A stretch of DNA of 64,000 nucleotides from a virus. Location of the stretch: the IMG/VR virus record IMGVR_UViG_3300005590_000001, positions 64,001 through 128,000 of that record; one strand, 5' to 3'. The notes below the pieces were generated by a model. The model saw only the letters and a program-made list of their open reading frames with translations. It did no database searches and had not been told where the DNA came from. Positions 8,423 to 16,580 of this stretch are shown here, in pieces. Numbering within the stretch: the first letter of the stretch is position 1; every line of letters starts with the position of its first letter. Position numbers and translations under genes: made by a program.

Positions 8423-9058
8423 CTAGCTGTCGTCTTCGTCTTCGCCGAAATCGCCGAAGTCGAAATCGCCCATGACTTCGCCTGCGAGATTCGGTGCCCG
8501 CTTGCTGCGAAGATTGGTGTACTTCTTGACATTCTGTCGCAAAGCTACGGCAGCCTGTTCGTACAGATCCTCAGTGATATCGGTGAAACCAATATCCCGC
8601 AGACCCTCAACAGGATGAGCCACACGATCTTCGCCATCAAACGAATACTTGATGGAACTGGCGTCCTTTTCCATCGCGTTTCGAACTACCGTGTTCACGC
8701 CGCTTGTTCCGCGACCATCCACGATTCCGCCGAAGAACTTACGGCAGACCCCTTCGTAGATCTGATTCCGAGCGAATTCCAACGCACGATTCCACTGATC
8801 GCGGAAGATGTTACGTGGAATACCACCCAAACGCTTGTCCGGCAGCTTGCCATCCCAGCCGATCATTCGGCAGGCAACTTTCGGATTGGTCTCTCCGTTG
8901 ACCAGACAAAACGACGCAAAGTGCTGAAGCACGTATGCGTTAAACACTGGCGGGTCAACCGTTTCGTAATCACGAACACCCGGCTTTTCCCGCATTGCAG
9001 CAATGGAATTTTCCAAAGCTGCCGCGTACCATTCCTCAGTCTGTTTCGACACAGCCAT
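8423..9058 (-). CDS. hypothetical protein with acidic C-terminal tail
   Basis: GAGGAG RBS; ends DFDFGDFGEDEDDS; followed by the hairpin ccgcccggc-aaat-gccgggcgg. Confidence 0.75.
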   Translation of the reverse strand: MAVSKQTEEWYAAALENSIAAMREKPGVRDYETVDPPVFNAYVLQHFASFCLVNGETNPKVACRMIGWDGKLPDKRLGGIPRNIFRDQWNRALEFARNQIYEGVCRKFFGGIVDGRGTSGVNTVVRNAMEKDASSIKYSFDGEDRVAHPVEGLRDIGFTDITEDLYEQAAVALRQNVKKYTNLRSKRAPNLAGEVMGDFDFGDFGEDEDDS

Positions 9059-9101
9059 GAGAAAATCTCCTCAAAATGAGGTGAACAAAACTGTCCGACT
9101 A

Positions 9102-9410
9102 CTACGATTCGCCGAACAAAAATTCAGACAGAATGTCTTCGGTAATCGTACGATCACTCCTGACTTTCCGCCGTTTCTGTTTCCATGACAATCCCATTGA
9201 GGAACCATCAGAAAACCAATCCGTTACTTCGTCACCGAAGAACACTTTTGGAATGACCGTGCCATTCCATGCCGCGAACCGGACACACAAACGACCGTTC
9301 TCACGAAACAGGTCAGCAATCGCACACTTTTCGTGACTTTTGCCGTTAGATTCAACGATTGTGAACCGCCGGTTTTCCGCTTTTCGCGGGATTTTTAACC
9401 GTTTTCGCAC
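9102..9410 (-). CDS. hypothetical basic protein
   Basis: Start re-assigned to GTG (VRKRLK) after GGAG; the upstream extension is the TGTACA repeat tract. Confidence 0.6.
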   Translation of the reverse strand: MRKRLKIPRKAENRRFTIVESNGKSHEKCAIADLFRENGRLCVRFAAWNGTVIPKVFFGDEVTDWFSDGSSMGLSWKQKRRKVRSDRTITEDILSEFLFGES

Positions 9411-9598
9411 CGTTTTCTCCGTTTTGTTGTCGTTGTCGTTGTTTGTGGTTGTCTCTGTCGCCACCCTATAAGCTATGGAGGGCACGTTGTCCGGTTTTTC
9501 TGGCAGGATTTGACGCTGTAATTTTGAACACTGTACAAACGTTGTGCGGACACTTGAAAGGTGTACAGTGTACAAGCGTAAGGTGTGCAAATGTGAGG

Positions 9599-9668
9599 TG
9601 TACAGAGGTGGGGTCGACAAGTGTTAAGTGTACAAATGTTCATCTGTCGCGGACATTTGTCCCGCGAC
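9599..9668. repeat. ~68-bp imperfect direct repeat copy 1, ending in palindrome TCGCGGACATTTGTCCCGCGA
   Basis: tgtaca..gtggggt.gaca...tgtacaaatgttc....tcgcggacatttgtcccgcga; copy 2 at 11549-11617. Confidence 0.85.
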
Positions 9669-9712
9669 CGCCTGTACAGTGTACAAACGATCAGGAGAAC
9701 AAATGTTCAGTC

Positions 9713-9752
9713 AAACAAACCGCTCCCCTGTACAAGCGTACAGGGGAGGGTT
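9713..9752 (-). terminator. probable intrinsic terminator
   Basis: CTCCCCTGTAC-GCTT-GTACAGGGGAG followed by TTTGTTTG, just after the stop of the 536-aa gene. Confidence 0.6.
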
Positions 9753-9764
9753 GCTGTACAGATG

Positions 9765-11375
9765 TCAACTGTCTCTGCGATGGTTCAAACCACCATGCCG
9801 CCGATGACTGGGCACCTGTCCAGTGTATTGGAACATTGTACATTCGTCCATGCAGACGTGGTCCTCCATTTTCTTCTCTAGACTCTTGTACAGGTCCTTC
9901 AGGCGAGCGAAGTACGCTGAACGCTTGATCCGCCTGAACTTATGATCAGCGGCAATTCCGAGATCAGCGTCGCCGTTCTTTCGTAGACAATTGTACAGTG
10001 CCACGCGGCGGAACTTCTGATCGACATTCGGGAACATGCTGGACAGATGATCAGTGTGTTCGATCTGACTCTGCAAAAGAGCCAACTGGTTATCTGTCCA
10101 GTTCAGCGAATCGTCCATCATCATCTCATGAAGTGGAAACTTGTTCAGCTTGCCGTATTCGTCGTGAGTTCGGCGGACTGTATTCATGTACAGGTCCACG
10201 TGCTTCTCACGAGACTGACGATTCAGCATAGTGTACAAAGTTACACCGATGAACTTCAGGTTTCGCAGTGAACGGGTGTACACTACTTCCTGTGGTCTGG
10301 ACGATTGTCCAATTTGAATCCACGTCGGTTTCTGCTGGACAAATGTCCCGAAGATTCCGGTGGATTCTTCGTAACTGATCGGATGTTCAAGCGGACCTTC
10401 GAGCGAGGTCATTTTACTGAACTGACGTATATATGATTCGCTGCGGGACCGAATACTGAACTCGTGTCCAGTTTCCAAACATCTGAATCGAATTTCTTTC
10501 ACCTTGCGATTCTGTACAGTGTTCTTTTGATCAGTACGTCGGCTGACCGTTTCCATATCGACCACGTGGATTTTACTGTCCACACGTTCAACTGTACGTG
10601 CGACCAGATAGGCTTTTCCGCGGTCAGTCGGATCGAACCACCTGCACAGTGTTGAACAATTGTTCATCAAAAACGCTCGCTGGCAGGCGTCCTCAATATC
10701 ATCTCCGCTGAAAATTTGATCAGGGAGTTGCAACCCACTGGACACGCGTCCATCTCGCTGCTGATCCGGATTGAACATCTTTCCGCCCCGACCATGATTC
10801 GCGGTCCCGTCAGTGGAATGATGTACAGTAGTCCGTTCTCGCATCGAATTCAGCTTGGTGGACACGCGTTCACCCCGCTTCCGGTTCTGTGCATTGCAGA
10901 AATCGGCCACAAACGGATCACTGATCGCACGTATAGTGGTCAGAATCTTGATCTGTTCATCTGTATAGTGAATCCCGTTGTCGAGATTCGGTTCAGGTGA
11001 ACAATTGGACAGTGCCACGAACAAGCACCTTGCAGCACGAAGCGGCATTGTACATCTGTACACTGTCGGTCGTGCCATGAATCCGGTGCGTGTCCTGTAC
11101 AGTGTGAACCGAAGCATACGCTGGTCAGTTGTCCACGCGTTGTCCATATTGAGCATATGTTCAGCACAGTACCAATGATCAGTAACGTCATCGACCCACG
11201 CTGGACATTCGCTGTCCATAGACAGATGTTCAGCCATATCGGCGACTGAACCGATGTACACTGGAATTCCGGTATCTTCTGCCGCACGAATTGTGGGGAG
11301 CTGGCGGAATGCCTGCATTGACATTTGTTCACGTGTAACGCCTGTCATGGAAACGCCGGTTGGGAAACTGTTCAT
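9765..11375 (-). CDS. large orphan protein (~536 aa)
   Basis: Start re-assigned to MNSFPTG after GAGGAG; long uninterrupted frame; no family motif recognised. Confidence 0.7.
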   Translation of the reverse strand: MNSFPTGVSMTGVTREQMSMQAFRQLPTIRAAEDTGIPVYIGSVADMAEHLSMDSECPAWVDDVTDHWYCAEHMLNMDNAWTTDQRMLRFTLYRTRTGFMARPTVYRCTMPLRAARCLFVALSNCSPEPNLDNGIHYTDEQIKILTTIRAISDPFVADFCNAQNRKRGERVSTKLNSMRERTTVHHSTDGTANHGRGGKMFNPDQQRDGRVSSGLQLPDQIFSGDDIEDACQRAFLMNNCSTLCRWFDPTDRGKAYLVARTVERVDSKIHVVDMETVSRRTDQKNTVQNRKVKEIRFRCLETGHEFSIRSRSESYIRQFSKMTSLEGPLEHPISYEESTGIFGTFVQQKPTWIQIGQSSRPQEVVYTRSLRNLKFIGVTLYTMLNRQSREKHVDLYMNTVRRTHDEYGKLNKFPLHEMMMDDSLNWTDNQLALLQSQIEHTDHLSSMFPNVDQKFRRVALYNCLRKNGDADLGIAADHKFRRIKRSAYFARLKDLYKSLEKKMEDHVCMDECTMFQYTGQVPSHRRHGGLNHRRDS

Positions 11376-11548
11376 CTGTACACTCCTCAAAACAAGAGAG
11401 AAACGGTCGGCTGAACACATGTCCAGCCGCCCGGCAGACTGCCGGGAAACCCATTGTAGCAAGCTGTCCGGCAAAATCCACACAATTCGGGAAAGATTTT
11501 TACTGGAATATTGAACACTGTACAGACTATCAATGTACAAAGTGACAC

Positions 11549-11617
11549 TGTACAAGAGTGGGGTGGACATCTTTGCACTGTACAAATGTTCTCTCTCGCG
11601 GACATTTGTCCCGCGAG
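11549..11617. repeat. ~68-bp imperfect direct repeat copy 2 with palindrome
   Basis: See copy 1; the two copies bracket the 536-aa gene. Confidence 0.85.
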
Positions 11618-11675
11618 CACGTTAGAATCTGTGCCCACGGGCAGCCCGATTGCTGCCCGTTCTTACTTTTGAGAA

Positions 11676-12116
11676 TCAGCGTCGTTTGCGGCGTACTATT
11701 CTTTTGCAATCACACTTGCGTGCGGCGGCAAGAGCGGTTTTCTTGTCGATTCCCATTTCTTGCAATTCTTTTGCTTTGTCGAGAATCGACTGCATTCTGT
11801 ATTGGAATTCTTGTCTAGCTGGCGGGATATTCGTGCCATGATAATTAACCTTAATTTCATTTCCCGCTGGATACAACGATGCACCTTCTGGAACTCCCAG
11901 ATATGAGAATTCTCCATTGTGACGGAATGGTCTGTATCGTTGACGATCCTGTGCGAGATTCGGAAAGATTCCGAAAATCGTATATGTGTTTCGCTCATCT
12001 GACAGCAGATCACCAGCGTGAGACGCTGTGTATATTACGCGTTTGACGCCTTCGCGGTCTTTGAAGACGAAAACGAAATCGTACTTATGGTGACGGTAAT
12101 TTGCAGGAAACAACAT
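11676..12116 (-). CDS. hypothetical protein
   Basis: AGGAG RBS; basic C-terminus; followed by the hairpin acgggcagc..gctgcccgt. Confidence 0.7.
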   Translation of the reverse strand: MLFPANYRHHKYDFVFVFKDREGVKRVIYTASHAGDLLSDERNTYTIFGIFPNLAQDRQRYRPFRHNGEFSYLGVPEGASLYPAGNEIKVNYHGTNIPPARQEFQYRMQSILDKAKELQEMGIDKKTALAAARKCDCKRIVRRKRR

Positions 12117-12183
12117 TATTCAAACTCCTAAAACAGAGAAGGGAAACCACCCGCAGGATCCTGCGGGTGGTGGTCGTCAAGTC

Positions 12184-12411
12184 TTACAATCTTTCGATTG
12201 AGTGTATTACTTCATGCGGATCTGGATTTGATTCTGCCTTTCCGCGACACTGGATACAAACGTCCAGAATAGCATGGTCGAAAACTTTACCATCCTGCTG
12301 ACTGACTCCGGAAAAACAGACCCGGTATTTTTTCGGGCAGAGATTACAAACGTGGCATTTTCCCGGATACATCCGGTCAAGATAATTCAGAATTGCATCG
12401 TTTGATAGCAT
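12184..12411 (-). CDS. small Cys-rich protein
   Basis: Start re-assigned to MLSND after GAAGGT; CxxC motifs. Confidence 0.55.
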   Translation of the reverse strand: MLSNDAILNYLDRMYPGKCHVCNLCPKKYRVCFSGVSQQDGKVFDHAILDVCIQCRGKAESNPDPHEVIHSIERL

Positions 12412-12475
12412 TTCGTCACCTTCAGTTGAATGAAGACCACCCGCGGGACGTCCCGCGGGTGGTGGTCGCCAGATT

Positions 12476-12952
12476 CTACAGTTTCTCGATTGCGATCTCT
12501 GCCAAATTGGCATACGGATTGCCAATCCACAACTGAATGCCAGCATGCTTCGCTGTCAGCAGAGCCTGTTCATGCGTGAATTCACGCTCTTCGATTCCCC
12601 CGTTTTCCACAATTTGGACCACGATTTTCCCGTTAATGGGAAATACCATAATTCGCCGATTTTCATCGGCGACGATTCCGAAGCGATTGTCCCATCGTGA
12701 AAAGTGGGTGATTGCATACGGCGCAGCCTTGTCTTGATCCCTCAGTTCAAGATATCCCTTGGCGGTGATTTCGTTCAACTTTTCCTTGACACCATTGACA
12801 GCCATCGGACGACCAGTCTTGTCGTTGGGAAAAAATGTTCCCATTGTCCGCATTGCGGGTGGCTTTCCGTTCTCGAAAACGAATTTGCAGTAAACGTCCA
12901 AGAATCGCGCCTGTCGTTCCGTAAGTTTGTTTTCCGTTGCCTTGCGTTTCAT
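12476..12952 (-). CDS. LexA-type winged-HTH DNA-binding protein lacking the S24 peptidase domain
   Basis: LTERQ..FL......ENGKPP.MR.MG....GV.EKL..I..KGYLE fits the LexA N-terminal domain pattern LT.RQ....G.PP..RE........L..KGY; AGGAG RBS. Confidence 0.72.
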   Translation of the reverse strand: MKRKATENKLTERQARFLDVYCKFVFENGKPPAMRTMGTFFPNDKTGRPMAVNGVKEKLNEITAKGYLELRDQDKAAPYAITHFSRWDNRFGIVADENRRIMVFPINGKIVVQIVENGGIEEREFTHEQALLTAKHAGIQLWIGNPYANLAEIAIEKL

Positions 12953-13009
12953 CGTGTGAACTCCTGAAAAGAGAATGTTTGACGCGGTCGATTGCCGCGT
13001 TCTGCCCCT

Positions 13010-13037
13010 ATTCTAGCGACTGTTCTAGGATCGTCAA
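13010..13037 (-). promoter_or_regulatory. sigma70-type promoter
   Basis: TTGACG-16 nt-TAGAAT with AT-rich upstream DNA, preceding the LexA-like gene. Confidence 0.7.
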
Positions 13038-13133
13038 CAATAAAATTTTACTTTTGTGCAATGGACAAAATCACAGCTTGTTCCCATTTATAGGAATCTA
13101 AATTGTCACTATTGAGAATCCCGAAATTGAGAG

Positions 13134-13185
13134 GACCATTCCTATTTATAAGAATCTCGAAAATCGCGGACATTTGTCCCGCGAT
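13134..13185. repeat. cassette-boundary repeat (GACCATTCCTATTNATAAGAAT + CGCGGACATTTGTC palindrome), copy at 13134
   Basis: Second copy at 13550-13600. Confidence 0.8.
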
Positions 13186-13201
13186 CACGCATTTCCTTTT
13201 A

Positions 13202-13237
13202 CAAAGAAAAGAGCATCGGCCGATCTCCGATGCTCTT
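13202..13237 (-). terminator. intrinsic terminator
   Basis: AAGAGCATCGG-AGATCGG-CCGATGCTCTT-TTCTTT. Confidence 0.75.
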
Positions 13238-13248
13238 GGTCGTTTCGT

Positions 13249-13419
13249 TCAATCCTGCTTCCGGACCCTCAGGATCGTCGCTTCAGGGTATTCACTCCGA
13301 AACTTGTTCCGGGCATGCTGCTCGGATGACGCCTGAGTGACAAAATAAATTCCGTCAGCATTCTCGACACTGTACCGGGCATAAAGCTCCGGCCGATAAA
13401 CCCGTTCCTTTGTGTTCAT
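13249..13419 (-). CDS. small hypothetical protein (56 aa, below the ORF-track cutoff)
   Basis: AAGGA RBS; MNTKERVYRPELYARYSVENADGIYFVTQASSEQHARNKFRSEYPEATILRVRKQD; has its own promoter and terminator. Confidence 0.7.
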   Translation of the reverse strand: MNTKERVYRPELYARYSVENADGIYFVTQASSEQHARNKFRSEYPEATILRVRKQD

Positions 13420-13482
13420 GTTGTCTTTCCTTGTAAATCAGGAAACAAAGCGAATCACAGCGAAGTGCTGTGAACTGACACC

Positions 13483-13510
13483 ATATTAACGAGTGAATTC
13501 CGGTTGTCAA
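13483..13510 (-). promoter_or_regulatory. sigma70-type promoter
   Basis: TTGACA-16 nt-TAATAT. Confidence 0.68.
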
Positions 13511-13549
13511 CATAGCCTTATAAGAATTTTTTACTCCCAATTTTGGGAA

Positions 13550-13600
13550 GACCATTCCTATTGATAAGAATATATTCGCTCGCGGACATTTGTCTCCGCT
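13550..13600. repeat. cassette-boundary repeat, copy at 13550
   Basis: gaccattcctattgataagaat...tcgcggacatttgtc. Confidence 0.8.
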
Positions 13601-13674
13601 CGAAAACGCATAAACGCCCAAGAGATCTTGGACGAGAAAAGCCCGCGGGTTTCCCCGCGGGCTGGGTTCAGTTC

Positions 13675-14112
13675 TTATTCCAGTGGTCCGAGTTCATTCA
13701 CATCCCGAAAAATTGGCTGACACAATCGGAATTCTTGCTGTGTGCCATTCGGCCAGATTCTAAACTTCGCTCCCTCCTTCTCTCTGCAATCCATGCATAC
13801 GTTCCACATCGAATCGTTAATGTCATCATTATCAATCATCATCCCAACCCACATTCGGGTGCCGGTCAATCTGCTTCGCAGAAAATTGCGGATGATAGCA
13901 CTAGATACTGACGGGCCAGCTTTTGCTACAGGGTTGATATGGAACCACCGTACCCTGAGACCCACCTTGGTGGTTTCATAGGCAAGACACCCCGCCATTG
14001 CTCCATCAGGATACGCCATCACAACATAGTGCATATCCTGCGTCAGGAGTGATGCAGGAGCGCCCATATATTCGGCGACAGTGTCAGCAACTTCGAAATA
14101 TTCAAAAACCAT
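13675..14112 (-). CDS. putative GNAT-fold protein (degenerate)
   Basis: Start MVFEY after GGAG; VMA..DG.MAGCL.Y......L.V.WFHINP resembles GNAT strands beta2-beta4, but the canonical R/Q-x-x-G-x-G motif is absent. Confidence 0.4.
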   Translation of the reverse strand: MVFEYFEVADTVAEYMGAPASLLTQDMHYVVMAYPDGAMAGCLAYETTKVGLRVRWFHINPVAKAGPSVSSAIIRNFLRSRLTGTRMWVGMMIDNDDINDSMWNVCMDCREKEGAKFRIWPNGTQQEFRLCQPIFRDVNELGPLE

Positions 14113-14170
14113 GAGCGTTCTCCAAAAAACACCCGCGGGTTTCCCCGCGGGTGTCGATTCAGACCCAACC

Positions 14171-16009: not shown

Positions 16010-16162
16010 ATGTCCGCAAAAATTATTTATGGTAACGTTGAACTGGTTATACAGGAAACCCCAGAACTAGAGCGAAGCGTAGCTTCGGACTTACAGAGAG
16101 AAGATGAAAGAAGTGATGATGAACGAGAACGAGCTATTACGTCTAACACAGTACGTAGCTGA
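16010..16162 (+). CDS. small hypothetical protein
   Basis: AGGAG RBS before MSAKII. Confidence 0.5.
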   Translation: MSAKIIYGNVELVIQETPELERSVASDLQREDERSDDERERAITSNTVRS

Positions 16163-16580
16163 ACAACTTAAGCATACCTTTACATTTGATATTTACGATA
16201 GTGATGATATTGAGCAAGAAGTATACTTTCTTATATTGGAAGCAGCACGAAAATATGATTCGGCGAAATCCACCCCGGAACAATTCTTTTATCACTTTGT
16301 ACGCAATAGATTGATAACATTGAAAAGAGATCGTTACTTCAATGAGCAAAGCGCTGAGAACAAGAAACGGCTGATGACCGCCGGGAGTCTTTCTATTGAT
16401 GTAGAGGATGAGCATAAATTGTTCGCCGATACTAATTTCTTAAATATTGTAGATGAGAAAATAGTGGCAAATTTACGCGAAGATTTTTTAAGAATGAAAG
16501 ACGGCGTTTCTATTCCACATCATTCACGGCAAAAGGTACTAGCTGCTATGAGAGTAATCGCTGAATCGGAGGAAGTGTAG
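16104..16580 (+). CDS. sigma70 region-2-like factor (putative late sigma)
   Basis: DDIEQEVYFLILEAARKYDSAKS..EQFFYHFVRNRL resembles sigma region 2 (DL.QE..L..A..FD....F.....RN). Confidence 0.65.
   Translation: MKEVMMNENELLRLTQYVAEQLKHTFTFDIYDSDDIEQEVYFLILEAARKYDSAKSTPEQFFYHFVRNRLITLKRDRYFNEQSAENKKRLMTAGSLSIDVEDEHKLFADTNFLNIVDEKIVANLREDFLRMKDGVSIPHHSRQKVLAAMRVIAESEEV

What the first reader, a model, noticed from the sequence alone, without database searches (positions are those of the whole stretch)
9525..12952. A 2-kb cassette saturated with SOS-box-like dyads next to a peptidase-less LexA homolog
Seen: 26 TGTACA sites in 9532-11584 (fewer than one expected; only a few elsewhere in 64 kb). 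Many are half-sites of 14-bp dyads TGNACA-NN-YGTNCA, e.g. TGTACAAATGTTCA 9629, GAACAAATGTTC 9697, TAGACAATTGTACA 9984, TGAACAATTGTTCA 10653, TGGACACGCGTCCA 10739, TGTACATCTGTACA 11049, TGTTCATCTGTACA 11369 (over the RBS/start), TGAACACATGTCCA 11412. They run straight through the 536-aa coding sequence. Established: GAAC-N4-GTTC (Firmicutes/Actinobacteria/Chloroflexi), GTAC-N4-GTTC (cyanobacteria) and TGTTC-N4-GAACA (Verrucomicrobia) are LexA boxes with this geometry. A LexA-type wHTH gene without the autocleavage domain lies 0.9 kb away. Inference: either a DNA sponge titrating host LexA (forcing SOS on entry), or an array coated by the phage's non-cleavable LexA to silence a toxic early gene or act as a centromere/anchor.
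Basis: partly seen in the sequence, partly recalled or inferred. Interest (0 to 1): 0.85.

Follow-up and report, generated by a model that had tools for sequence, protein, structure and literature searches.

The report
Phage gene saturated with TGTACA sites
A 2.1-kb early gene unit of an uncultured 172-kb phage, coding sequence included, is packed with the palindrome TGTACA and close variants; selection keeps these words in four diverged phage lineages, so a protein almost certainly reads them, but no result here links that protein to LexA.

Summary
26 of the window's 31 TGTACA sites, and 26 of 61 in the whole 172-kb phage genome, lie in 9532-11584. The wider family TG[TGA][ACT]CA reaches 31 per kb there against 2.5 per kb elsewhere, and 18 of the 27 G[ATG]AC-N4-GT[ATC]C dyads in the genome lie inside.

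The excess is selected on the DNA:
- It exceeds every synonymous-codon shuffle.
- Hexamer positions are spared in a 95% relative.
- It recurs in every known relative of the enclosed orphan 536-aa gene (80%, 53% and 27% identity). In the most distant one the sites mostly sit at other codons.

The unit consists of a conserved palindrome, a 15-bp-phased TGTACA array, a sigma70-type promoter, an operator dyad before the RBS, the gene, and a second palindrome and array that heads the next unit.

The neighbour is a LexA-type winged helix without the S24 peptidase. Its own promoter carries a different dyad array, and most hexamers are not LexA-type dyads.

Best reading (0.4): an autoregulated early gene coated by its own product. 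Rivals are the LexA-like protein, a small basic neighbour or host factor, an iteron origin, and a host-LexA sponge. The binder is unproven. Earlier scan notes report similar motif-saturated early blocks in other phages.

The parts
11595..11617 (-). Head palindrome CTCGCGGGACAAATGTCCGCGAG of the P0004 unit. It is one of four copies in the genome.
   Evidence: It is identical in the 53% lineage L003 (six copies). In L005 the outer stem is kept but the core differs.
11512..11592 (-). Upstream array of five 15-bp-phased hexamers: TGTACA at 11579, 11549, 11534 and 11519, and TGGACA at 11564. A GTAC-N4-GTTC dyad lies at 11580 and a 7-bp pair at 11512.
   Evidence: period 15, 3.0 copies.
11453..11480 (-). 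Inferred sigma70-type promoter TGGATT-16-TACAAT. The equivalents are TTGATT-16-TACAAT in L025, TTGAAA-16-TACAAT in L003 and TTGACA-17-TATAAT in L005.
   Evidence: Read. The window copy falls below the strict scan, so it rests on conserved position in four lineages.
11430..11446 (-). 5'-UTR hairpin CCCGGCAGTCTGCCGGG
   Evidence: It is identical in L003 and L025.
11412..11425 (-). Operator-like dyad TGGACA-TG-TGTTCA between the promoter and the RBS
   Evidence: It lies at the same place in L003 (TGGACAagTGTTCA), L025 (TGGACGcgTGTCCA) and L005 (TGAACAggTGTTCA).
11369..11388 (-). RBS GAGGAG, a TGTACA between the RBS and the ATG, and the ATG inside TGTTCA (dyad TGTTCATCTGTACA)
9765..11375 (-). P0004, an orphan 536-aa protein. 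Its coding sequence carries 12 TGTACA, 44 family hexamers and 11 dyads.
9723..9748 (-). Terminator-like hairpin after the P0004 stop codon. It contains one TGTACA.
9648..9666 (-). Second head palindrome CGCGGGACAAATGTCCGCG, preceded by a TGTACAgTGTACA pair at 9673-9685
9525..9642 (-). Downstream array, the largest one: hexamers every 15 bp (9629, 9614, 9599, 9584, 9569), 7-bp pairs at 9562/9569 and 9525/9532, and the dyad TGTACAAATGTTCA at 9629. It heads the next unit.
   Evidence: period 15, 4.8 copies. L006 has one extra 15-bp unit.
9102..9443 (-). P0011, a small basic protein (113 aa, pI 9.6) and first gene of the unit headed by the downstream array. It is a candidate binder.
   Evidence: The GTG start agrees with the gene call in L003.
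8423..9058 (-). P0012, a 211-aa protein with an acidic C-terminal tail and second gene of that unit
12476..12952 (-). P0001, a LexA-type winged-helix protein (158 aa) without the S24 domain. It is a neighbour, not shown to be part of the system.

Best explanation
Window 9525-11617 is a self-contained early transcription unit. Its DNA has been selected to carry about 65 copies of a 6-bp palindrome family: TG[TGA][ACT]CA, with optimum YTGTACAR.

The sites most likely dock a sequence-specific, symmetric double-strand DNA reader that binds cooperatively. It would bind two promoter-upstream arrays with 15-bp phasing, a conserved operator dyad and a hexamer around the RBS, and about 44 hexamers inside the coding sequence. 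The whole gene, and the promoter of the next unit, would then be held in one extended repressive nucleoprotein complex.

The unit would then be a strongly autoregulated early gene with self-titration: the first molecules made are captured in cis by their own gene, which limits or shuts off expression and that of the downstream unit (P0011, P0012).

Shown: the sites exist, they are selected at DNA level, and they are co-inherited with this gene.

Inferred: that a protein binds them, that the protein is P0004, and that the effect is repression.
For: 1. The enrichment is extreme and sharply bounded.
2. Selection acts on the DNA. All three full-length homologues exceed all 2000 synonymous shuffles for family hexamers and for dyads. 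For TGTACA alone, P0004 and P0007 exceed every shuffle, while P0006 (5 observed against 1.8 expected) is matched by 20 of 2000.
3. Against a 95% relative, hexamer positions in the coding sequence changed 3 of 264 times and other positions 64 of 1347 times (Fisher p = 0.0025).
4. Both orientations of the asymmetric variants are about equally common on the coding strand, and the upstream arrays lie outside the transcript.
5. The motif is coupled to the gene. In L003 (53% identity) all 17 TGTACA of a 12.2-kb contig lie in the gene and its flanks. In L025 (80%) all 12 sites of 4 kb do. In L005 (27%) there are 16 sites in 2.15 kb, mostly at non-homologous codons and in insertions.
6. Regulatory placement is conserved. 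The dyad between promoter and RBS and a hexamer next to the RBS are kept in all four lineages.
7. P0002 and P0003 are dispensable, because the 95% relative L006 has another gene there and keeps 27 sites.
8. Precedent that a small dimeric domain reads TGTACA cores in autoregulation: the YefM operators (PMC1802561).
Against: No DNA-binding domain, or any known domain, is detectable in P0004. Its AlphaFold model is unusable at pLDDT 37.

The largest array heads the next unit, not the P0004 promoter, so P0011 is an equally formal candidate. P0001 is also conserved in the three lineages whose context is known.

The TGTACA core stays constant while P0004 diverges to 27% identity.

Isolated TGTACA sites elsewhere in the genome are not avoided.

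Saturating a whole gene body is not needed for simple autorepression, so part of the function is still unexplained.
Confidence: 0.4

Rival explanations
1. The phage's peptidase-less LexA-like protein P0001 is the reader. It coats the tract and silences P0004 and the next unit in a way that DNA damage cannot relieve.
For: P0001 has a LexA-type winged helix: Pfam 29.3 bits against a cut-off of 23.7, and the top Foldseek hits are LexA structures, although weak at E 0.02-0.08.

GNACA-NN-TGTNC dyads have the geometry of Gram-positive LexA boxes and are enriched: 11 observed against 2.2 expected in the coding sequence, and 18 of 27 in the genome.

The head palindromes, including the one upstream of P0001's own promoter, have a GGACAAATGTCC core of the same dyad family. 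A TGTCCA-T-TGCACA pair lies just upstream of its -35.

P0001 homologues accompany the cassette in the window, L006, L025 and L003.
Against: Its own promoter, here and in L003, carries the biggest array of a different dyad (ATTCTYA-N4-TRGGAAT) and almost no family hexamers.

Most hexamers are single, or phased as direct repeats at 15 bp, not dyads.

In L005 the palindrome core is replaced while the TGTACA sites persist.
Confidence: 0.15
2. One reading: the small basic protein P0011, encoded behind the largest array, or a conserved host DNA-binding protein.
For: The downstream array is the longest: about 10 hexamers here and about 12 in L003. It heads the P0011 unit. P0011 is basic (pI 9.6) with basic termini and is conserved at 50% identity.

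The constancy of the TGTACA core across a protein divergence down to 27% would fit a conserved host reader.
Against: In L005 the gene is followed directly by a tRNA-like sequence, with no P0011 unit, yet it keeps 16 sites.

The P0011 gene itself has no hexamers.

No host is known, and no Phd/YefM, TacA or RHH_1 family protein is detectable in the phage.
Confidence: 0.15
3. The tract is an iteron-type replication origin or plasmid-like maintenance locus, with P0004 as its cis-acting initiator. The layout would be that of P1 or F (iterons, rep gene, iterons) or of lambda, where the origin lies inside the O gene.
For: Arrays of direct repeats in the same orientation flank the gene, and sites also lie inside it. 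The arrays gain and lose whole 15-bp units.

Against: There is no AT-rich unwinding element: the lowest 60-nt GC is 35%, about the genome mean.

No Rep3_N and no ParB_N were found, and no ParA-type hit passes the cut-off. The DnaB-type helicase lies 68 kb away.

The sites spread over all 1.6 kb of the gene instead of forming a compact origin. The spacing is 15 bp rather than one or two helical turns. There is no convincing long-range phasing in the coding sequence.
Confidence: 0.15
4. The tract is a DNA sponge that titrates host LexA and forces the SOS response as phage DNA copies accumulate.
For: There are two perfect GAAC-N4-GTTC boxes, at 9697 and 10654, and many near-boxes. L003 has a perfect CTGT-N8-ACAG box at 7277.
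Against: The selected optimum is TGTACA, which is not a known LexA box. Most sites are not dyads.

The tract is tied to one conserved coding gene with its own promoter and operator layout in all lineages. A sponge would not need that.

The host and its LexA box are unknown.
Confidence: 0.05
5. The sites are not a regulator-docking field. They might be targets of a modification or restriction-type enzyme (TGTACA is a type II site), a recombination or packaging hot spot, or a structural DNA feature.
For: A 6-bp palindrome is the typical target of a homodimeric type II enzyme. P0004 is an orphan with a conserved acidic block DDIED...TD.G. The TG/CA and TA steps are flexible (my own knowledge).
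Against: TGTACA is neither avoided nor enriched in the other 170 kb. The placement at the promoter, operator and RBS, and the 15-bp arrays, look regulatory. The packaging genes start 5 kb away on the other strand.
Confidence: 0.1

Closest known systems
Iteron replicons with the initiator gene between or around its sites: P1 incC-repA-incA, F ori2-repE-incC, and lambda ori inside gene O (PMC7466680)
   Same: Arrays of direct repeats lie on both sides of one gene and sites lie inside it. The upstream array overlaps the promoter region, which would allow autoregulation. The arrays change by whole units.
   Different: There are about 65 sites spread over the entire 1.6-kb coding sequence, against 4-14 compact iterons. 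The core is a 6-bp palindrome at 15-bp phasing. There is no AT-rich element and no Rep-family domain, and the replication genes lie elsewhere.
Stoperators of cluster A mycobacteriophages (L5 gp71-type repressor; PMC9283540, PMC6550527)
   Same: Many copies of one repressor site are used, beyond the promoters, to stop transcription elongation in a phage.
   Different: Stoperators are 13-bp asymmetric, oriented sites in short intergenic gaps all over the genome. Here the sites are symmetric, lie inside one coding sequence and its two flanks, and occur nowhere else.
YefM-YoeB and Axe-Txe operators (PMC1802561)
   Same: The core is TGTACA, read by a small dimeric antitoxin domain. Paired sites sit over a promoter for autorepression.
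   Different: There are two sites 12 bp apart, not dozens at 7, 8 and 15 bp. No Phd/YefM-family protein is found in the phage. This is an analogy of recognition only.
LexA boxes of the GAAC-N4-GTTC (Cheo box) type, and LexA itself
   Same: The dyad geometry GNAC-N4-GTNC is shared, with two perfect Cheo boxes. The neighbouring gene has a LexA-type winged helix.
   Different: The second base of each half-site is free (A, G or T), and T is preferred. Most sites are lone hexamers. The neighbour lacks the S24 domain, and its own promoter carries other dyads.
Decoy or titration site clusters (E. coli datA; synthetic decoy arrays, PMC3322331, title and abstract only)
   Same: A dense cluster of sites could buffer the free concentration of a DNA-binding protein and sharpen its dose-response.
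   Different: No natural case known to me has the decoys written through the coding sequence of a single gene. Function is untested here.

Membership tests
LexA repressor (for P0001) | N-terminal LexA-type winged helix-turn-helix | tested here: met
   Pfam LexA_DNA_bind at 29.3 bits against a cut-off of 23.7, residues 8-73. A six-frame search gives 29.1 bits and it is the only hit in the genome. The top Foldseek hits are LexA structures but weak, at E 0.02-0.08 with model pLDDT 60.
LexA repressor (for P0001) | C-terminal S24 peptidase domain with a Ser-Lys dyad and an Ala-Gly cleavage site | tested here: not met
   No Peptidase_S24 match in P0001 or anywhere in the phage genome. TIGR00498 lexA scores 23 bits against a cut-off of 111. 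The C-terminal 85 residues form a small beta/alpha domain.
LexA repressor (for P0001) | Binds the SOS box of its organism | not testable with these tools
   Host unknown.
SOS (LexA) boxes (for the dyads) | A 12-16-bp dyad matching the host's LexA consensus | tested here: inconclusive
   There are two perfect GAAC-N4-GTTC boxes, four GTAC-N4-GT[AT]C, none of TGTTC-N4-GAACA and none of GTTC-N7-GTTC in the cassette. Two CTGT-N8-ACAG matches are also present. The host consensus is unknown, and the selected word is TGTACA.
SOS (LexA) boxes (for the dyads) | All sites are dyads able to seat a LexA dimer | tested here: not met
   Only about 6 of the 26 TGTACA sites have a partner hexamer at 8 bp. The arrays are direct 15-bp repeats with 7-bp pairs.
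Iteron-type replicon | Repeated initiator sites next to or inside the initiator gene | tested here: met
Iteron-type replicon | AT-rich DNA unwinding element beside the iterons | tested here: not met
   The lowest 60-nt GC in the cassette is 35% here, and 27-33% in the relatives only inside arrays or promoters.
Iteron-type replicon | Initiator of a known Rep family | tested here: not met
   No Pfam, NCBIfam, PHROG or PDB match for P0004, P0006 or P0007. Rep3_N is absent from the genome.
Partition (centromere) locus | Adjacent ParA, ParM or TubZ NTPase, and a ParB-type or RHH adaptor | tested here: not met
   ParB_N is absent. CbiA/ParA gives only a 14-bit P-loop hit, 71 kb away. RHH_1 is absent. 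The neighbours have no family. ParM and TubZ were not searched.
Stoperator-type repressor system | Asymmetric sites oriented with transcription and dispersed over the genome | tested here: not met
   The sites are palindromic and confined to one 2.1-kb unit.

The most novel reading that the evidence does not exclude
A class of phage early genes whose whole coding sequence doubles as a dense binding field for a symmetric DNA reader, probably the gene's own product. The gene would be at once the source and the sink of its regulator. This would act as a built-in decoy, timer or silencing domain that sets a sharp threshold for early-gene shut-off, or keeps a harmful early protein at very low dose. 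It would be maintained by co-evolution of codon choice and binding specificity over a divergence down to 27% protein identity.
Probability: 0.3. Interest if true: 0.85.

Novelty: new variant of a known kind. Interest (0 to 1): 0.7.

Why it matters
Coding sequences are rarely found to carry a second, dense layer of selected DNA signals. Here about one codon in six of a 536-codon gene overlaps a selected hexamer. The pattern has been rebuilt at different codons in a relative with only 27% protein identity, so it is a strong and lasting constraint.

That would be useful for understanding timing in phage early programmes, and as a compact part for synthetic threshold circuits.

It also gives a clear handle (TGTACA arrays, a defined promoter and operator) on an orphan protein family and on an uncharted, cassette-built early region of a 172-kb phage. 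That region also holds a second operator family and a peptidase-less LexA relative.

Earlier notes of this scan report comparable motif-saturated early blocks in unrelated phages. The phenomenon may therefore be general and under-described.

Tried and rejected
Identity of P0004: Pfam, PHROGs, NCBIfam and a PDB profile search gave nothing. An exhaustive HMMER search of 1.8 billion representatives gave only two relatives. A profile word search added none. The ESM Atlas gave no usable hit. AlphaFold on a 4-sequence alignment gave pLDDT 37, so no fold search was run on it.

More relatives: scans of viral, metagenome and genome contigs gave only 96% copies or nothing. Known phages have no DNA or protein match to the cassette.

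Host: unknown. The terminase is only 25% identical to those of Bacillus phages. The 18-mer palindrome hits 15 unrelated genomes, which is about the chance expectation by my own arithmetic.

RNA explanations: no Rfam match in 9000-13800.

Restriction avoidance: TGTACA is not depleted elsewhere in the genome.

Long-range phasing of the intragenic hexamers: only marginal, uncorrected p-values, so rejected as a claim.

My first population test (0 of 156 against 147 of 2193) was inflated by a non-homologous flank. The restricted test is the one to use.

A DnaA-box and an NtcA reading of the repeats were considered by eye and dropped, because the flanks and spacings do not fit.

No complex-prediction job was sent, because no protein-protein contact is claimed.

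Full report
**Where it is.** The window is bases 64001-128000 of a 171,987-bp virus record with terminal repeats, estimated complete. The terminase is only about 25% identical to those of Bacillus siphoviruses. The cassette has no DNA or protein match among 50,697 phage records. The host is unknown. The finding lies in a minus-strand block of small early-type genes at about 7-15 kb. This block has 46-51% GC in a genome of about 38%. It runs divergently from the late and packaging genes, which begin with a sigma70-region-2 protein at 16104.

**Observation.**
- TGTACA occurs 31 times in the window, 26 of them in 9532-11584. Shuffles give 16.2 +/- 4.1 for all 64 kb.
- The genome has 61 sites, 26 of them here. 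Outside the cassette the word is at its Markov expectation, 35 against 33.
- K-mer contrasts give the core YTGTACAR and the relatives TGGACA/TGTCCA and TGAACA/TGTTCA.
- The family TG[TGA][ACT]CA reaches 31 per kb between 9520 and 11620, against 2.5 per kb elsewhere. Neighbouring genes of the same GC content have 0-6 per kb, so base composition is not the cause.
- All 8 genome matches to hexamer-NN-hexamer, and 18 of the 27 G[ATG]AC-N4-GT[ATC]C dyads, lie inside.

**Anatomy, read on the minus strand.**
1. After the hairpin that ends the previous unit comes the palindrome CTCGCGGGACAAATGTCCGCGAG (11617-11595).
2. Next is an array of five hexamers exactly 15 bp apart (11579-11519) plus a 7-bp partner. 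Tandem Repeats Finder reports period 15.
3. Then comes a promoter-like TGGATT-16-TACAAT (11480-11453) and a 5'-UTR hairpin (11446-11430).
4. The dyad TGGACAtgTGTTCA (11425-11412) follows, then the RBS GAGGAG, a TGTACA, and the ATG at 11375.
5. The 536-codon ORF (P0004, 9765..11375) holds 12 TGTACA, 44 family hexamers and 11 dyads.
6. After its terminator-like hairpin (9748-9723) come a TGTACAgTGTACA pair and the same palindrome (9666-9648).
7. A longer 15-bp array follows (9629-9525). It heads the next unit: P0011, a basic 113-aa protein, and P0012, a 211-aa protein with an acidic tail.

The two palindrome-plus-array elements are direct repeats of each other.

**Is the pattern selected?** Four tests say yes.
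1. Synonymous-codon shuffles keep the protein and the codon usage. They give 3.6 +/- 1.4 TGTACA (12 observed), 14.9 +/- 3.0 family hexamers (44 observed) and 2.2 +/- 1.3 dyads (11 observed). None of 2000 shuffles reached the observed value. Most control palindromes are unremarkable; TGATCA, itself a member of the family, is also in excess at 5 against 1.1.
2. The same holds for the two diverged full-length homologues, P0006 and P0007. The exception is TGTACA alone in P0006, where 20 of 2000 shuffles match the observed 5.
3. Against a 95% relative (L007), hexamer positions in the coding sequence changed 3 of 264 times and other positions 64 of 1347 times, p = 0.0025. The two flanking heads changed at only 5 of 490 positions. 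My earlier, larger contrast included a non-homologous flank and should be ignored.
4. Asymmetric variants occur in both orientations on the coding strand, and the upstream array lies outside the transcript.

**Comparative evidence.** P0004 is an orphan. An exhaustive HMMER search of 1.8 billion representatives found only P0006 (53%) and P0007 (27-28%, E = 8e-6). The context of a LexA-like homologue added L025 (80%). Each relative repeats the pattern.
- In L003 all 17 TGTACA of a 12.2-kb contig lie in the gene and its two flanks.
- In L025 all 12 sites of a 4-kb contig lie in the unit.
- In L005 there are 16 sites in 2.15 kb.
- P0004 and P0006 share many sites at homologous codons. P0007 carries most of its 12 sites at other codons and inside insertions. 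Density, not position, is therefore what is maintained.
- The layout of palindrome or hairpin, array, promoter, 5' hairpin, operator dyad and RBS-adjacent hexamer is kept in all four lineages. L005 has a perfect TTGACA-17-TATAAT promoter.

**The wider architecture and the LexA question.** The palindrome occurs four times in the genome, all between 9648 and 13599 on the minus strand. Each copy follows a terminator and heads a unit. L003 has six such heads and L006 has four.

All heads except the two around P0004 are followed by a different dyad family (ATTCTYA-N4-TRGGAAT and TCCCAA-AA-TTGGGA). The largest such arrays stand in front of the LexA-like gene, both here and in L003.

P0001 does carry a LexA-type winged helix (Pfam above cut-off; weak Foldseek hits to LexA). 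No S24 peptidase exists anywhere in the phage. So "peptidase-less LexA homologue" stands.

Nothing connects P0001 to the TGTACA field beyond proximity and a shared dyad geometry. By the usual logic that a regulator's own promoter carries its operators, P0001 more likely reads the ATTCT-type dyads. That is an inference, not a result.

P0002 and P0003 can be excluded as necessary partners. The 95% relative L006 has another gene in their place and keeps 27 sites.

**Mechanism.** I commit to a cooperative, symmetric double-strand DNA reader that occupies the two arrays, the operator and the gene body. It would repress the P0004 promoter, the downstream unit, and probably elongation through the gene. 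The gene's own product is the most likely reader (0.4), because it is the only protein known to travel with the motif in all lineages.

The 7-, 8- and 15-bp spacings of a 6-bp palindrome recall repressors that line up dimer by dimer on short repeats. Examples are MetJ met boxes and omega heptads (my own knowledge) and YefM on TGTACA cores (PMC1802561). No Phd/YefM, TacA or RHH_1 domain is detectable in the phage.

**Rivals.**
- P0001 as reader: 0.15.
- P0011 or a host factor as reader: 0.15.
- An iteron origin or maintenance locus in the manner of P1, F or lambda O (PMC7466680): 0.15. It is weakened by the lack of an AT-rich element, of Rep, ParB or ParA, and by the helicase lying 68 kb away.
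- A host-LexA sponge: 0.05.
- A modification, restriction or recombination target: 0.1.

**Novelty.** Site arrays around or inside a regulator or initiator gene are known, and so are stoperators (PMC9283540). A single gene whose entire coding sequence is written over with about 27 selected sites per kb, and rebuilt at new codons in distant relatives, is something I could not find described. Other notes of this scan describe similar motif-saturated early blocks in unrelated phages. Those are unchecked leads, not evidence. I rate this a new variant of a known kind, with interest 0.7.

Noticed in passing
window 13080-13183 and 13520-13599 (minus strand); L003 2910-5700: A second operator family (ATTCTYA-N4-TRGGAAT and TCCCAA-AA-TTGGGA dyads) follows the same conserved palindrome in front of most early units. 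The largest arrays lie upstream of the LexA-like gene. A few ATTCT-N8-GGAAT matches also lie 17-24 kb before the window start.
   Followed up: partly
window 9648-9666, 11597-11615, 13165-13183, 13581-13599: The palindrome CGCGGGACAAATGTCCGCG heads four early units and is identical in a lineage with only 53% protein identity. In L005 the CGCGG/CCGCG stem is kept but the core differs. This suggests a separate reader or a structural role.
   Followed up: partly
L006 8800-9215 compared with window 11678-12466: In a 95% relative, P0003 and P0002 are replaced by one unrelated gene. Other blocks (window 13610-14125) are also swapped, with breakpoints near the palindromes. The early region is a mosaic of exchangeable cassettes.
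   Followed up: partly
window 8423-9443: The unit behind the larger array encodes a small basic protein (P0011, GTG start directly after TATAGG) and a 211-aa protein ending in an SSB-like acidic tail, DFDFGDFGEDEDDS. Neither has a known family.
   Followed up: partly
L003 7277-7292: A perfect CTGT-N8-ACAG box (CTGTATAAGAATACAG), the proteobacterial LexA-box form, lies just upstream of the P0006 promoter. The window has no equivalent at that spot.
   Followed up: no
window 16104-16580: A 158-aa protein with sigma-70 region 2 (24 bits, at the cut-off) opens the plus-strand late and packaging block. It is probably a phage sigma factor for late genes.
   Followed up: no
window 12140-12180 and 12438-12475: Near-identical GC hairpins with CCCGCGGG-type arms separate P0001, P0003 and P0002. 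GCAATCG loops recur in several terminator and 5'-UTR hairpins of the region, here and in L003.
   Followed up: no
L005 2101-2151: The contig ends in a sequence with a tRNA T-arm (GGAGTCGAACC on the opposite strand) that overlaps the 3' end of P0007. ARAGORN cannot call it because the contig is cut.
   Followed up: partly
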